7,004 bases of DNA from a virus. Taxonomy: Duplodnaviria; Heunggongvirae; Uroviricota; Caudoviricetes. This document shows positions 3,001-6,000 of the stretch, one piece after another. Every line of letters begins with the position of its first letter. The first letter of the stretch is position 1. Position numbers: made by a program. The stretch spans positions 1 through 7,004 of IMG/VR virus record IMGVR_UViG_2529293078_000008; one strand, given 5' to 3'.

Positions 3001-6000
3001 TCTTAGTCTTGGATATTCTGACCTTACGCTGATTAATGGTCGGGTAACCTTGTTCGTTTAGCCATTTACAGATAGCAAACATCGACATACCAGACAGACG
3101 CTTGTCATAGATGATATTCACCAGTGACGCTTTATCTTCATCAACGATGTAGTGTGAACCGTCTTCTGATAGCTCTAACCATCCGGGGGCTTGCTTACCC
3201 ATAGGCTTCTTAAGTTCTCTTGCAAGCTGTGTTTTATGGTTCCAGACCTGAGCTATACGCTTTTGTTTAACAAGAGATTCCTGATGTGCTCGCTCAGCTA
3301 TGATGATGTGCTTAATCAACTTCACAGGGTCTGTTAAGGCTGACTTGTCGTAGAGTTCACCATCTCCCAGAGTCAGTATAGAGACTCCCTTCCTCAGTAT
3401 CTGCCTAACGTCATCTATAGCTGTGTCGATATCTGCCCTACTGAAGCGGTCAAAGTTCTCTACAACAATCAAGGAACCTTCTGGAATAGCCCCAGACATA
3501 ACATTTTCAAACATACGTCTGAAGTCAGAACCTTGAGCCTTATGTTGCTGGTGAAAACCAGATTTACCCTTATCAACGTATCTGTGAGCAGGAAGAAGGT
3601 AATAATCGTTTTTGTGCTTAGAGTAGAAAGCATCAATGAGGTTTGTTTGCCGTCTTAAGGAGTCTCCTGAGTCTTGCTCTTTAGTACTCCACCTGATGTA
3701 TGTCACTAGCAGCTTCATATCTTCGGACTATGCTTATCTAAGTGGTTCATTGAACAGGAGAACAATGATATGAGTGTTAAGGCAAGAATACTAGTGCTTT
3801 ATTATTCCATGTACGGACATATTGAAACCATGAAGCATTAAAAACACAGAATTACCGAAGATCGTCCAAGAGCATATATTTTTCAATCTGTTACACCTCA
3901 TTTTGACCATGAAGAAATCAATTTTACACCGTTCTTTATACGTTCTTTTTTGCCCCAAATATGCCCCAAACAACCACATTTTGCCCCAATAGTGCCCCAA
4001 ACATTTAAGGGGATTTAACTTGATATTTCAGATAATTAACGCAAGTTTGCGATGCGAATTTGCGTTAATTTTCTGGATGAGGCATTTACCGTTACCCGTT
4101 CATCAATATTCCGCTGATTGACAAATCCTCCAGAGCTATCGCATACTGACCGCACTGAACAAATAAGCGGTCTCCGCACCCGATAGCTTTGCGGCTTTTT
4201 TATGCCTGCAATTTGGCATAGTTACATCCGTACAAAGGTCGGGTGGAGAGGCGTAATACAACACCCGCAAGGGGAATATGCCCAGAGCTTCTTATTTGGC
4301 TCAGTTGACACCCGACCGCCAGCTACTAACTGGCGGTTATAAACTAAACAAATAAGGAGGTCATCATGACCAGTCAACTCATCCCCGTATTCAACGGCAC
4401 TATCGCCAACGAAACCACTCTTCTCGTTAATGCCCGTGATTTACATACTTTTCTTGGAGTAGGTAAACGCTTTGCATCGTGGATTACAGAACGTATTGAA
4501 GAGTACGGATTCGTTGAAAATCAGGACTATATAGCTATTTCCCAGAAACGGGAAATAGGTTATGGGCGAGGGAAAAAAGACTACCACCTTACCCTCGATA
4601 CAGCCAAAGAAACGGCGATGGTAGAGCGTAACGAAAAAGGCCGACAGATACGCAGATACTTCATCGAGTGCGAAAAGAAACTTCGCAACATGCAGTCGGC
4701 ACAAGCAGAACCACAGCAACAATTCACAGACGAGGAAATCATCCTCCTCTGCTACATGCAACTCTGGATGGAAAAAGCCCAGGACCTCAGCAAACACCTG
4801 TATCCGATCATGAAAGAGCTGAACTCCTCATACACGAACAAGCTGTATGACATTGCGTTTGAGACCATCTACATGGTGACGAAGAACAGAGATGTGCTAC
4901 TGAGAGAGGCGGCACGGCTTGACCAGTCGAGTTTCGTAGTTCAGCGGGCCAGACCAATGCTGAAAAGCCTGCGGGCAAGGCAATTCGAATTCTAAAACCA
5001 AAGGAGCTTCGGCTCCTTTTTTCATGCCTGAAGGAAAGGAAAATGGCAGATATCATCGACAACGCCGCTGAAATCGAAGAATTGCAGCGCAATCTCTCCC
5101 TGCAAAAATACAAATCCGATAGTAATGCCCCATCTGCTACTCATTGTTGCGAGTGTGGCGATCCGATAGATGAGCGGCGACGCCTGGCTGTTCGTGGATG
5201 CAGAGCTTGCGCCAGTTGCCAGCAGGATATTGAACTTATCAACAAACAGAGAGGTGTGAAGTGAACATCAACACCACGATAACGATCGATACAGCCCTGA
5301 ACACCGGCCTAGCGCTCCTTGGTTATTTCTACATCATGTTCTGCAGCGGACGATGGCTGTCACTGTTGTTCATGAAAAAATGGAATAAACGCCGTAAGCA
5401 GGAGCAACGCCAAAAGGCAATAGATGCATTTTTCGAAGCCTTCGGTATTGACGGCATGGAACCAGGGGATCCAGCTCGCGCAATTAGCAGAGGGGGCGTA
5501 GTAATCCTTGTATACCGGAGTGAAGAGAAAAATGAGCAAGATTGACTATCAGGCACTGCGTGAAAAGGCAGAGAAAGCAACTAAAGGAAGCTACATCGTA
5601 GGGCATACATCTGTTAACCAGCACGGCAATTTAACAGGAGTTTTTGTTTGCCAAAAATGGAAAGGAGAACCCGGTGGCGTGATTGCAGAATGTCATGTTA
5701 ACTGCCTGGTTGAAACAGATGCTCAGGCTTATGCAACGCTGAATTCATAGCAGAGGCTAACCCGGCTACCGTGCTGGAACTGCTGGATGAACGGGAAAGA
5801 AACCAGCAATACATCAAACGCCGCGACCAGGAGAACGAGGAGATTGCGCTTACGGTTGGGAAGCTGAGAGTTGAGCTGGGAGCAGCAGAGAACAACCTTA
5901 TTGATAGTGAATGCCATGTTGCTGAACTGGAAGAAGCGCTACGCGATAAGCAGGCGTTACTTGAAGCATCAGAGAAGCGCATAGCAGAACTGGAAGCCGA

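What the first reader, a model, noticed from the sequence alone, without database searches (positions are those of the whole stretch)
4996..5050. Strong intrinsic terminator inside the early operon implies antitermination-dependent expression
A textbook terminator (GC stem, UUCG tetraloop, T6) sits between the antirepressor-like gene and the TraR-like gene, with no room for a promoter before the next ribosome-binding site. Downstream genes overlap start and stop codons, as in one transcript. Expression downstream therefore probably requires readthrough, as with N- or Q-type antitermination in lambdoid phages. The loosely boxA-like sequence plus hairpin in the leader at 4286-4337 could be the corresponding RNA site, though that similarity is weak.
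Basis: partly seen in the sequence, partly recalled or inferred. Interest (0 to 1): 0.4.

Follow-up and report, generated by a model that had tools for sequence, protein, structure and literature searches.

The report
Terminator ending a mobile antirepressor cassette
A real but ordinary transcription stop signal marks the end of a portable antirepressor gene unit at the edge of a Shiga-toxin phage; the genes behind it are probably reached mainly by the phage's own terminator-resistant early transcription, not through any signal in the local leader.

Summary
The hairpin exists as described. It has a GGAGC/GCUCC core (5003-5007/5012-5016), a UUCG loop and T6 (5017-5022). It starts 4-7 nt after the ant stop codon and ends 20 nt before the TraR-like ATG. 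It is the only such motif in the window (0.01-0.03 expected by chance).

It is invariant in 66 related loci (34 distinct flanks), while flanking sequence diverges. It forms the right edge of a portable unit: promoter (4118-4147), structured leader, ant, terminator. That unit sits in at least four genomic contexts, always co-directional with its neighbours and twice just upstream of xis-int.

The window's right half is the attR end of a 933W/Sp5-type Stx2a phage. After circularisation, pL-N-exo-xis-int-attP runs straight into this unit. Lambda and Sp5 carry the same stem before an orf73/TraR paralogue; this is the published predicted terminator "t2".

Read-through by N-modified polymerase is therefore plausible but untested here. 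Leakiness, or masking of the hairpin by the ribosome at the ant stop codon, are live alternatives.

The proposed nut/put site is not supported. The leader is an Rfam sRNA-Xcc1 RNA in a c4/IsrK-like antisense arrangement with three-way covariation, and it overlaps the Hfq-bound RNA EcOnc43.

The terminator is ordinary. The leader is the more interesting part.

The parts
4118..4147 (+). Promoter-like site of the ant cassette (TTGACA, 18 nt spacer, CATACT). It marks the left boundary of the portable unit.
   Evidence: Best sigma-70 match in the window, 10 of 12. Homology between cassettes in different phages begins 1-3 nt before this -35 hexamer. Diverged cassettes keep a -35/-10 pair at the same place. 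The Hfq-bound RNA EcOnc43 starts just downstream.
4149..4201 (+). Short 5' leader RNA, proposed to be EcOnc43 and IsrK-like. It carries segment A (AACAAATAAG, 4158-4167) and a leader hairpin (CCGCA 4174-4178 / TGCGG 4190-4194) followed by T6 (4196-4201).
   Evidence: The stem covaries across cassettes (CCGCA/TGCGG, CCAAC/GTTGG, CCACG/CGTGG) and is always followed by T6-7. The homologous locus L078 has Rfam isrK at this position. The Tree et al. 2014 Hfq-CRAC peak EcOnc43 (NC_002695.1 1308356-1308404, minus strand) maps to about 4146-4199 after a +135 to +140 version shift calibrated on AsxR.
4237..4325 (+). sRNA-Xcc1 family RNA. The loop of its second hairpin (segment B, CTTATTTG, 4291-4298) is antisense to the ant ribosome-binding region.
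   Evidence: Rfam RF02221, 69.1 bits against gathering threshold 53, E=2e-11. The same family occurs upstream of ant in nine of the ten related loci scanned. B is complementary to segments A and C in about 12 sequence variants. The MFE fold of the whole leader pairs B with the SD region (z = -4.9).
4347..4360 (+). Segment C (AACAAATAAG, 4347-4356) overlapping the Shine-Dalgarno AAGGAGG (4354-4360) of ant.
   Evidence: C is an exact copy of segment A and the reverse complement of B. All three change together among phages.
4366..4995 (+). ant: AntA/AntB-type antirepressor with a P22_AR_C domain. Equivalent to ECs_1251, 933W L0142, and by inference Z1503.
   Evidence: Pfam PF08346 (3.7e-27) and PF10548 (6e-9). 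RefSeq and phage annotations agree.
5000..5022 (+). Intrinsic terminator-type hairpin plus T6. This is the finding, and it is the right boundary of the ant cassette.
   Evidence: Fold. Unique in the window and far above chance. 100% conserved in 66 related loci with 34 distinct flanks, while neighbouring columns show 68-96% majority identity. The sequence downstream diverges right at or after the T-run into at least four unrelated contexts. Lambda and Sp5 exo-xis carry the same stem before orf73.
5043..6825 (+). Downstream co-directional block: TraR/DksA zinc-finger protein (5043-5264, lambda orf73 paralogue), DUF4752 (5261-5545), Ea22-like/DUF551 (5532-6430, frameshifted), hypothetical (6430-6825).
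   Evidence: Pfam. Annotation. 71% identity to the Sp5 exo-xis orf73 homologue ECs_1170. Start/stop overlaps.
3823..3828 (.). Annotated core attachment site of the Stx2a prophage inside wrbA. In the circular phage this point joins int to the region above.
   Evidence: The misc_recomb feature of AP000422, mapped to the window. In Sp5, N, exo, xis and int lie on the same strand as ECs_1251 to ECs_1244.

Best explanation
The hairpin plus T6 at 5000-5022 is a genuine Rho-independent terminator. It forms the 3' end of a self-contained, horizontally mobile transcription unit of about 870 nt: promoter at 4118-4147, a roughly 210-nt regulatory leader, ant, then the terminator.

The unit is embedded co-directionally in the distal part of the leftward (pL) operon of lambdoid phages. 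In this Stx2a phage it lies just across attP from int.

In the integrated prophage the terminator ends transcripts that start at the cassette's own promoter. It thereby insulates the downstream exo-xis-like genes (TraR/orf73 paralogue, DUF4752, Ea22-like and others) from that promoter.

On infection or after excision the genome is circular. pL transcription carrying the phage N antitermination complex then runs through xis, int and attP into the cassette, ignores this terminator, and expresses the downstream block.

What is shown:
- the motif, its statistical uniqueness and its invariance;
- the cassette boundaries and the co-linearity with pL;
- the location upstream of xis-int in relatives.

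What is inferred:
- that termination actually occurs;
- that N-modified polymerase is what crosses it.
For: Motif and statistics: (classical d-score +15 with the core hairpin).

Conservation: the 23-nt element is identical in 66 loci and 34 distinct flank variants, although Ant protein identity falls to about 69% and adjacent columns vary.

Cassette boundaries:
- Left edge at the -35 hexamer.
- Right edge at the T-run, followed by unrelated sequence: TraR, lambda xis, a lambda orf55 homologue, and a deletion variant. One TraR-type locus also has a group II intron inserted 4 nt after the T-run.

Analogy: an Ant homologue of 55% identity (L072) carries a different, non-homologous 8-bp hairpin plus T5 at the same place.

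Autonomous transcription in the lysogen: the Hfq-CRAC peak EcOnc43 maps to the start of the leader. The Gifsy-1 isrK-orf45-anrP-isrJ unit is built the same way, about 910 nt from promoter to terminator.

Topology: in Sp5, N, cIII, gam, bet, exo, xis and int share a strand with ECs_1251 to ECs_1244. They are therefore contiguous across attP in the circle.

Necessity of read-through in relatives: in L019 (lambda xis/int at the lambda attachment site) and L026 (xis plus a tyrosine integrase, next to a proA-like gene) the cassette lies directly upstream of xis-int, on the same strand.

Precedent:
- Lambda (30671-30689) and the Sp5 exo-xis region have the same GGAGC/GCUCC+T6 hairpin 57 nt upstream of orf73. 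This is the predicted terminator t2 of Bloch et al. 2014, across which lambda mRNA levels drop.
- Lambda also has a hairpin+T6 about 30 nt upstream of xis.

No promoter-like site lies between terminator and TraR.
Against: - No transcript 3'-end or expression data for this site could be accessed. Term-seq for strain Sakai exists, but no tables are held here.
- The GC core is only 5 bp (-7.5 kcal/mol).
- The stop codon is 4-7 nt upstream. In E. coli, lambda tR2 placed 8-9 bp after a stop codon was almost fully repressed by the ribosome. Termination may therefore be weak whenever ant is translated.
- For the paralogous t2, Bloch et al. saw lower downstream mRNA in lambda even during lytic growth, yet high downstream expression in phage 24B. 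They suggested a promoter overlapping the terminator. The behaviour of such sites is thus not simply 'N on / N off'.
- The promoter at 4118-4147 is predicted, not mapped.
- Persistence of N-modified complexes over about 11 kb is assumed from lambda biology.
- The hairpin shows no covariation because it never varies. Its conservation could partly reflect its use as a recombination joint.
Confidence: 0.6

Rival explanations
1. Leaky, ribosome-gated terminator. Transcripts from the cassette's own promoter cross the hairpin whenever ant is being translated. The ribosome stopping at UAA (4993-4995) would cover the 5' arm that begins at 5000/5003. When ant is translationally silent, the hairpin forms and transcription stops. 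Downstream genes would then follow ant translation, with no N or Q needed. This is not exclusive of the best explanation.
For: The spacing from stop codon to stem is 4-7 nt in the window. It stays within about 1 nt of that in all 34 flank variants, although the spacer and stop codon themselves vary (TAA/TGA; AACC, ATACC, TCATC, TATC). Li et al. 2016 found tR2 almost fully repressed at 8-9 bp from a stop codon, rising to about 0.9 beyond 30 bp. The leader looks like a translational switch. In three contexts the next gene's RBS follows within 16-57 nt with no promoter.
Against: Purely inferential. It depends on tight transcription-translation coupling at this gene. An Ant relative (L072) has its terminator about 10 nt after the stop, and lambda t2 lies about 30 nt after its upstream ORF. 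Close spacing is therefore not universal.
Confidence: 0.25
2. The leader RNA at about 4286-4337 is a nut- or put-type site that makes polymerases starting at the local promoter terminator-resistant.
For: A highly structured leader precedes the terminator (z = -4.9). HK022 put RNAs are also two-hairpin leader RNAs (own knowledge).
Against: No boxA within the leader at up to 1 mismatch. The region is an sRNA-Xcc1 family member. Its variable loop covaries with the SD region and with a 5' copy of it, which is the signature of antisense control of translation. In a homologous locus the same position is occupied by isrK plus C4 RNAs. The same leader precedes ant in contexts where the downstream sequence is unrelated.
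Confidence: 0.04
3. The hairpin mainly serves RNA stability or small-RNA biogenesis. It would act as a 3' protective stem-loop for ant mRNA, or as the source of a 3'-end-derived sRNA like IsrJ after anrP in Gifsy-1. On this view control of downstream transcription is incidental.
For: The Gifsy-1 unit ends in the IsrJ sRNA with its own terminator. Terminator hairpins with U-tails are typical Hfq-binding modules.
Against: No Rfam isrJ or other family match at 4900-5030 at E up to 1. No orphan Hfq peak is listed there in Tree et al. Table S2, only the one in the ECs1251-ycdG spacer. A stabilising hairpin still terminates if followed by U6.
Confidence: 0.08
4. Downstream genes have their own, non-consensus or factor-dependent promoter overlapping the terminator, as BPROM suggested for p1 at lambda/24B t2. 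On this view no read-through is needed.
For: Bloch et al. predicted a promoter (-35 TCATCA, -10 TTTTATTAT) overlapping t2, and saw high orf73/ea22 expression in phage 24B.
Against: The -10 of p1 (TTTTATTAT) is not present here; the window reads TTTTTTCATGCC. Only 20 nt separate the T-run from the ATG. No match at 7 of 12 or better has a start site in 5017-5042.
Confidence: 0.06

Closest known systems
[quoted passage not shown] 2014, PLoS One, PMC4195576)
   Same: Same stem (GGAGC/GCUCC) and T6. It sits upstream of a TraR/DksA-type zinc-finger gene that is 71-74% identical to the one here, in the leftward pL-driven region. A copy is also present in Sp5 itself.
   Different: The loop is UACAG rather than UUCG. 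It lies 57 nt, not 20 nt, before the ATG. The predicted overlapping promoter p1 is absent here. The upstream neighbour is orf61, not ant. Here the element lies on the far side of attP.
Internal terminators of the lambda pL operon (tL1, the tL2 cluster, tL3, tI) read through by N-modified RNA polymerase (own knowledge of the classical literature)
   Same: An intrinsic terminator between co-directional delayed-early genes. Genes beyond it (xis and int in relatives) need terminator-resistant transcription.
   Different: N dependence was not tested for this site. In the prophage this terminator is physically disconnected from pL by integration, as lambda's sib/tI region is.
Morons of lambdoid phages (Juhala et al. 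2000; concept cited in Tree et al. 2014)
   Same: An extra gene flanked by its own promoter and its own terminator. It is found in different places in otherwise related phages, and it is transcribed in the lysogen (EcOnc43).
   Different: Classical morons sit in late operons and are crossed by Q-modified polymerase. This one sits in the leftward early region and carries an elaborate RNA leader. In L019 it replaces neighbouring genes rather than simply being inserted.
Gifsy-1 isrK-orf45-anrP-isrJ locus (Hershko-Shalev et al. 2016, PMC4825925)
   Same: Shared layout: promoter, short sRNA with a leaky terminator, structured translationally silent leader, antirepressor, terminal Rho-independent terminator. 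Total length is about 0.9 kb. A homologous Ant locus (L078) has Rfam isrK+C4 where the window has EcOnc43+Xcc1.
   Different: Here there is no orf45-like upstream ORF. The RNA belongs to a different Rfam family (sRNA-Xcc1). No isrJ homologue is present. No experimental data exist for this locus beyond Hfq binding.
P1/P7 immI operon: c4 antisense RNA - icd - ant (Citron and Schuster 1990, 1992; references seen; content from own knowledge)
   Same: A leader-encoded structured RNA whose loop is complementary to the ribosome-binding region of the antirepressor operon, plus an upstream duplicate of the target. Specificity sequences differ between heteroimmune phages by coordinated changes.
   Different: One variable loop instead of two (a', b'). 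A different RNA family. Processing and trans action were not shown here.

Membership tests
Rho-independent (intrinsic) terminator | GC-rich stem-loop immediately followed by a U-tract | tested here: met
   GGAGC-UUCG-GCUCC plus U6, extendable to 8 bp. Energy -7.5 to -11.5 kcal/mol.
Rho-independent (intrinsic) terminator | More than chance, and placed after a stop codon on the coding strand | tested here: met
   The only hit in 14 kb of both strands, against 0.012-0.032 expected. It lies 4-7 nt after the ant stop codon.
Rho-independent (intrinsic) terminator | RNA 3' ends in the U-tract in vivo, or termination in vitro | not testable with these tools
   Sakai Term-seq (GSE143631) exists but no tables are held here.
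Rho-independent (intrinsic) terminator | Stem supported by compensatory changes among homologues | tested here: inconclusive
   The element never varies in 66 loci, nor does the stem in the t2 copies examined, so there is no covariation to count. Functional analogues with unrelated sequence occur at the same place (L072; lambda upstream of xis).
Moron-type autonomous cassette | Own promoter at the 5' boundary | tested here: inconclusive
   A 10/12 sigma-70 match sits exactly at the homology boundary. An Hfq-bound RNA starts just downstream in a lysogen. No mapped TSS is available.
Moron-type autonomous cassette | Own terminator at the 3' boundary | tested here: met
   Homology between cassettes ends at or just after the T-run.
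Moron-type autonomous cassette | Present between different neighbours in related phages | tested here: met
   At least four downstream contexts and several upstream ones. Lambda lacks it at the corresponding place.
N-utilisation (nut) site in the leader | boxA (YGCTCTTTA-like) followed by a boxB hairpin | tested here: not met
   No boxA at up to 1 mismatch in 4118-4365. The hairpin at 4316-4336 has a 7-nt loop and lies at the 3' edge of, and just beyond, the Xcc1 match.
HK022 put-type cis-acting antiterminator RNA | Two-stem leader RNA that directly modifies RNA polymerase | not testable with these tools
   No put model was matched in Rfam. The covariation pattern points to antisense pairing instead.
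c4 / IsrK-type antisense control of antirepressor genes | Leader RNA loop complementary to the RBS region, with an upstream copy of the target, changing coordinately between phages | tested here: met
   Segments A (4158-4167), B (4291-4298) and C (4347-4356). About 12 distinct specificities appear at fixed positions. The MFE fold pairs B with the SD.
c4 / IsrK-type antisense control of antirepressor genes | Membership of Rfam C4 (RF01695) or isrK (RF01394) | tested here: not met
   The window matches sRNA-Xcc1 (RF02221) only. C4 and isrK occur at the equivalent positions in the homologous locus L078.
sRNA-Xcc1 (RF02221) | Score above the curated gathering threshold over the full model | tested here: met
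   69.1 bits against 53, model positions 1-87.

The most novel reading that the evidence does not exclude
The terminator is the output stage of an RNA-controlled relay that needs no N or Q.

A short Hfq-bound leader RNA (EcOnc43, carrying segment A) would compete with the ant Shine-Dalgarno region (segment C) for the anti-SD loop (segment B) of an sRNA-Xcc1-class RNA, switching ant translation on.

The ant stop codon lies only 4-7 nt before the hairpin in every variant. The terminating ribosome would therefore mask the terminator, so transcription would continue into the TraR/DUF4752/Ea22-like block.

One small RNA with a phage-specific 'address' would then set both antirepressor synthesis and expression of the downstream accessory genes from the integrated prophage. 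This reading would also give the orphan family sRNA-Xcc1 and the orphan sRNA EcOnc43 a function.
Probability: 0.2. Interest if true: 0.6.

Novelty: new member of a known kind. Interest (0 to 1): 0.3.

Why it matters
For the terminator itself, not much. Intrinsic terminators inside lambdoid early operons, crossed by antiterminated polymerase, are textbook. A near-identical copy upstream of the paralogous orf73 gene has already been predicted in lambda and phage 24B.

What the follow-up adds is context for Stx-phage biology:
- The antirepressor at the attR end of 933W/Sp5-type Stx2a phages is a self-contained, widely exchanged cassette.
- Its downstream neighbours are connected to pL only in the excised or infecting genome.
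- Its leader is a c4/IsrK-like antisense switch built from an sRNA-Xcc1-family RNA. This gives a testable function to EcOnc43, which a 2021 review lists as 'target unknown', and to the Xcc1 family.

Antirepressors influence prophage induction and hence Shiga toxin output. How this one is gated is therefore of practical interest.

Tried and rejected
- The stock promoter/terminator scan did not list the site, probably because the extended stem consumes part of the T-run. I replaced it with my own scan (a first version timed out).
- The z-score of the 61-nt local fold is not significant. This is the wrong test for a 14-20 nt hairpin, so I did not use it.
- boxA search: nothing in the leader, so the nut idea was rejected.
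- Rfam at E up to 1 gives nothing at the terminator.
- Term-seq evidence: Sy et al. 2020 and related papers hold no supplementary tables here. Full-text searches for ECs1250/ECs1251 gave no main-text hits.
- HnrS and the 24B_1/d_ant story concern other loci. d_ant is a different ant gene, downstream of R.
- The cognate versus non-cognate RNAduplex matrix was noisy: -13.5 against -8.2 kcal/mol, with the cognate partner best in only 6 of 12 rows, because the windows were broad. I rely on the exact-match analysis instead.
- MAFFT placed gaps inconsistently in the variable segments, so I did not run the count of structure pairs on the B:C helix.
- A scan of one-genome-per-species contigs, using a degenerate pattern for the ant 3' end, returned only chance hits in unrelated taxa. 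No extra hairpin variants were obtained.
- The Citron and Schuster 1992 paper is not held.
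Full report
WHAT THE WINDOW IS

The 7 kb window is a composite.

- Bases 1-3790 are the end of a prophage with a tape-measure C-terminus, a Dit-like tail protein and a large serine recombinase (2075-3718, minus strand). About 93%-identical copies sit in wrbA of several E. coli genomes.
- Bases 3770-3835 are a rebuilt 5' end of wrbA (the identification rests on my recollection of the WrbA N-terminus and on the annotations).
- Bases 3794-7004 are 100% identical to the attR-proximal end of 933W/Sp5-type Stx2a phages (VT2-Sakai AP000422 60082-63292, minus strand).

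The genes in question are 933W L0142 to L0139, equal to Sakai ECs_1251 to ECs_1246:

- an AntA/P22_AR_C antirepressor (4366-4995);
- a TraR/DksA zinc-finger protein (5043-5264);
- DUF4752 (5261-5545);
- a frameshifted Ea22-like/DUF551 gene (5532-6430);
- a hypothetical gene (6430-6825);
- then sok/hok.

This is therefore not the immunity-proximal early operon. It is the equivalent of lambda's b region.

The ant stop codon is at 4993-4995. The hairpin has a GGAGC/GCUCC core (5003-5007/5012-5016) and a UUCG loop. Three A-U pairs can extend it to 8 bp. T6 occupies 5017-5022. The next ATG is at 5043, behind a good RBS.

Energies are modest: -7.5 kcal/mol for the core and about -11 extended. A classical hairpin/T-tract discriminant, recalled from memory, is positive (+15) for the core hairpin.

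The stock scan missed the site, probably because the extended stem absorbs T's. A purpose-written scan finds it as the only instance on either strand, with 0.012-0.032 expected per shuffled window.

No sigma-70-like match, even at 7 of 12, would start RNA between the hairpin and the TraR start.

COMPARATIVE EVIDENCE

Eighty viral contigs encoding Ant relatives were fetched.

- In 66 of them the 23-nt string AAAGGAGCTTCGGCTCCTTTTTT follows the ant stop by 4-6 nt. It is invariant across 34 distinct flank variants. The last 240 nt of ant show 71-96% majority identity per 10-nt block, and the sequence after the T-run falls to 68-73%.
- Downstream of the T-run the sequence switches to unrelated contexts:
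  - (a) the TraR gene, as here;
  - (b) lambda-type xis;
  - (c) a lambda orf55 homologue followed by xis and int;
  - (d) a deletion variant.
- One TraR-type locus (L061) also has a group II intron, confirmed by Rfam, inserted 4 nt after the T-run.
- Upstream, homology between cassettes starts 1-3 nt before the -35 hexamer at 4118.
- An Ant relative of 55% identity (L072) has a different 8-bp hairpin plus T5 at the same position.

The element is thus the right edge of a portable unit of promoter, leader, ant and terminator. It is maintained far better than its surroundings.

Because it never varies, there is no covariation to count. Part of the conservation could reflect its use as a recombination joint.

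WHERE THE CASSETTE SITS

In Sp5, the genes N, cIII, kil, gam, bet, exo, xis and int all read on the minus strand toward attL. ECs_1251 to ECs_1244 read on the same strand away from attR. In the circular genome the order is therefore pL, N, exo, xis, int, attP, ant cassette, TraR and onward. The terminator lies about 11 kb from pL.

In L019 (lambda Xis/Int at the lambda attachment site) and L026 (xis plus a tyrosine integrase, next to a proA-like gene) the cassette lies co-directionally just upstream of xis-int, behind Ea22-like genes. In lambda biology xis is expressed from pL (own knowledge). Polymerases from pL must therefore cross this very hairpin in those phages.

Lambda itself (30671-30689, l-strand) and the Sp5 exo-xis region carry the same stem and T6, with loop UACAG. 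It lies 57 nt before orf73, a 71-74% paralogue of the TraR gene here.

Bloch et al. 2014 predicted that element as terminator t2. They measured lower orf73/ea22/ea8.5 mRNA than upstream genes in lambda, but high expression in phage 24B. They also predicted an overlapping promoter. The -10 of that promoter is absent from the window.

Lambda also has a hairpin+T6 about 30 nt before xis.

The design 'accessory gene, terminator hairpin, next RBS' is therefore routine in the distal pL region.

THE LEADER IS NOT A NUT OR PUT SITE

Nothing boxA-like occurs in 4118-4365.

Positions 4237-4325 match Rfam sRNA-Xcc1 (69 bits; gathering threshold 53). The same family precedes ant in nine of the ten related loci scanned. 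In APSE phages it precedes an ORF6N-domain gene.

An alignment of 39 distinct leaders shows three segments that change together:

- A: 4158-4167, AACAAATAAG, near the 5' end;
- B: 4291-4298, CTTATTTG, the loop of the second Xcc1 hairpin;
- C: 4347-4356, AACAAATAAG, abutting and overlapping the SD AAGGAGG.

A and C are copies of each other, and B is their reverse complement. About 12 different 'specificities' occur at fixed positions. The MFE fold of the leader pairs B with the SD (z = -4.9).

A covarying hairpin plus T6-7 (4174-4201) follows segment A.

In the homologous locus L078, Rfam isrK and C4 occupy the positions of the 'A RNA' and the Xcc1 RNA.

This is the architecture of Gifsy-1 isrK-orf45-anrP-isrJ: a short sRNA with a leaky terminator, a translationally silent read-through mRNA of about 910 nt, and a terminal terminator. 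It is also the architecture of P1/P7 c4-icd-ant (own knowledge; references).

The Hfq-CRAC peak EcOnc43 of Tree et al. 2014 lies in the ECs1251-ycdG spacer on the minus strand. After correcting for the NC_002695.1 to .2 offset (+135 to +140, calibrated on AsxR), it maps to window positions of about 4146-4199. That is the predicted short 5' RNA. A 2021 review lists its target as unknown.

This indicates that the cassette is transcribed in the lysogen. A terminator at its end therefore has real work to do.

MECHANISM

Best supported (confidence about 0.6): the hairpin terminates cassette-initiated transcripts and insulates the downstream exo-xis-like genes in the prophage. Those genes are expressed mainly when N-modified pL transcription enters across attP in the circular genome.

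Termination itself, and the N dependence, are inferred. Neither was shown here.

The main rival (about 0.25) is not exclusive. The stop codon lies 4-7 nt before the stem in the window and at nearly the same distance in all variants. Lambda tR2 placed 8-9 bp after a stop codon was almost fully repressed in E. coli. A ribosome finishing ant may therefore mask the hairpin, which would tie downstream transcription to ant translation.

The following alternatives are less likely (see rival explanations):

- an independent promoter;
- a mere stabiliser or sRNA role;
- a put-like leader.

A weak hint of autonomy: Z1503, which I infer to be ant because primers z1503/z1504 span the prophage junction, is up about 4-fold in an rpoS mutant of EDL933. 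In the passage I saw, none of its downstream neighbours is listed.

VERDICT

The terminator is an ordinary new member of a known kind. It is essentially a copy of a published predicted lambda/24B terminator. The leader switch is the more novel by-product.

Noticed in passing
window 4118-4365 (A 4158-4167, B 4291-4298, C 4347-4356): There is three-way covariation in the ant leader. A 5' copy (A) and the SD-adjacent copy (C) of an 8-10 nt 'address' are both complementary to the loop (B) of an Rfam sRNA-Xcc1 RNA. About 12 different addresses occur across phages. This is c4/IsrK-like antisense logic carried by a different RNA family. It suggests that sRNA-Xcc1 RNAs are cis/trans regulators of antirepressor-type genes.
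   Followed up: partly
window about 4146-4199 (NC_002695.1 1308356-1308404, minus strand): The orphan Hfq-bound sRNA EcOnc43 (Tree et al. 2014, Table S2; target 'unknown' in a 2021 review) maps, after version-offset correction, onto the predicted short 5' RNA of the ant leader. That RNA runs from the promoter at 4118-4147 to the covarying hairpin+T6 at 4174-4201.
   Followed up: partly
window 4027-4077: A long, near-perfect hairpin (-28 kcal/mol, z = -6.2) followed by UUUUCU lies about 200 nt beyond the att core, on the side opposite int. This is the position of lambda's sib/tI retroregulator.
   Followed up: partly
window 3946-4000: Four direct copies of (T)GCCCCAA(A) at 3952, 3963, 3983 and 3994 lie next to the att core (3823-3828). 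They are probably arm-type binding sites for the 933W-type integrase.
   Followed up: no
window 1-3835: A second, unrelated prophage (tape measure, Dit-like protein, large serine recombinase at 2075-3718 on the minus strand) is integrated in the 5' end of wrbA, about 30 bp upstream of the Stx-phage att site. It supplies a new wrbA start (MSVKARI...). No complete E. coli genome in the collection shows this tandem arrangement at high identity; the best matches for the left part are about 93%.
   Followed up: partly
L061 3571-5412: A group II intron (Rfam group-II-D1D4-3, D1D4-1 and Intron_gpII) is inserted 4 nt after the T-run of the same terminator. This fits the known habit of some bacterial group II introns of inserting just 3' of intrinsic terminators (own knowledge). 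The intron class was not determined.
   Followed up: partly
L015, L016, L017, L024, L027, L059 and others (e.g. L016 204-451 and 857-985): Some phages carry two tandem leader units, each with its own sRNA-Xcc1 RNA. The first precedes another short gene and the second precedes ant. L019 and L026 also have a second, unrelated antirepressor-like gene just upstream of the cassette.
   Followed up: no
L165 (lambda) about 2085-2115, minus strand: Lambda has a CCGCC-UGAU-GGCGG hairpin plus T6 between orf55 (lambdap35) and xis, about 30 nt before the xis ATG. It is another terminator-like element inside the pL operon, not annotated in the RefSeq record.
   Followed up: no
window 5532-6430: The Ea22-like/DUF551 gene is split by a frameshift (ORFs 5532-5750 and 5771-6430) and is annotated as a pseudogene in RefSeq genomes.
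   Followed up: no
window 6947-7004: The 5' part of a sok antisense RNA (Rfam RF01794, truncated by the window end) belongs to the hokW/sokW module of the Stx phage.
   Followed up: no
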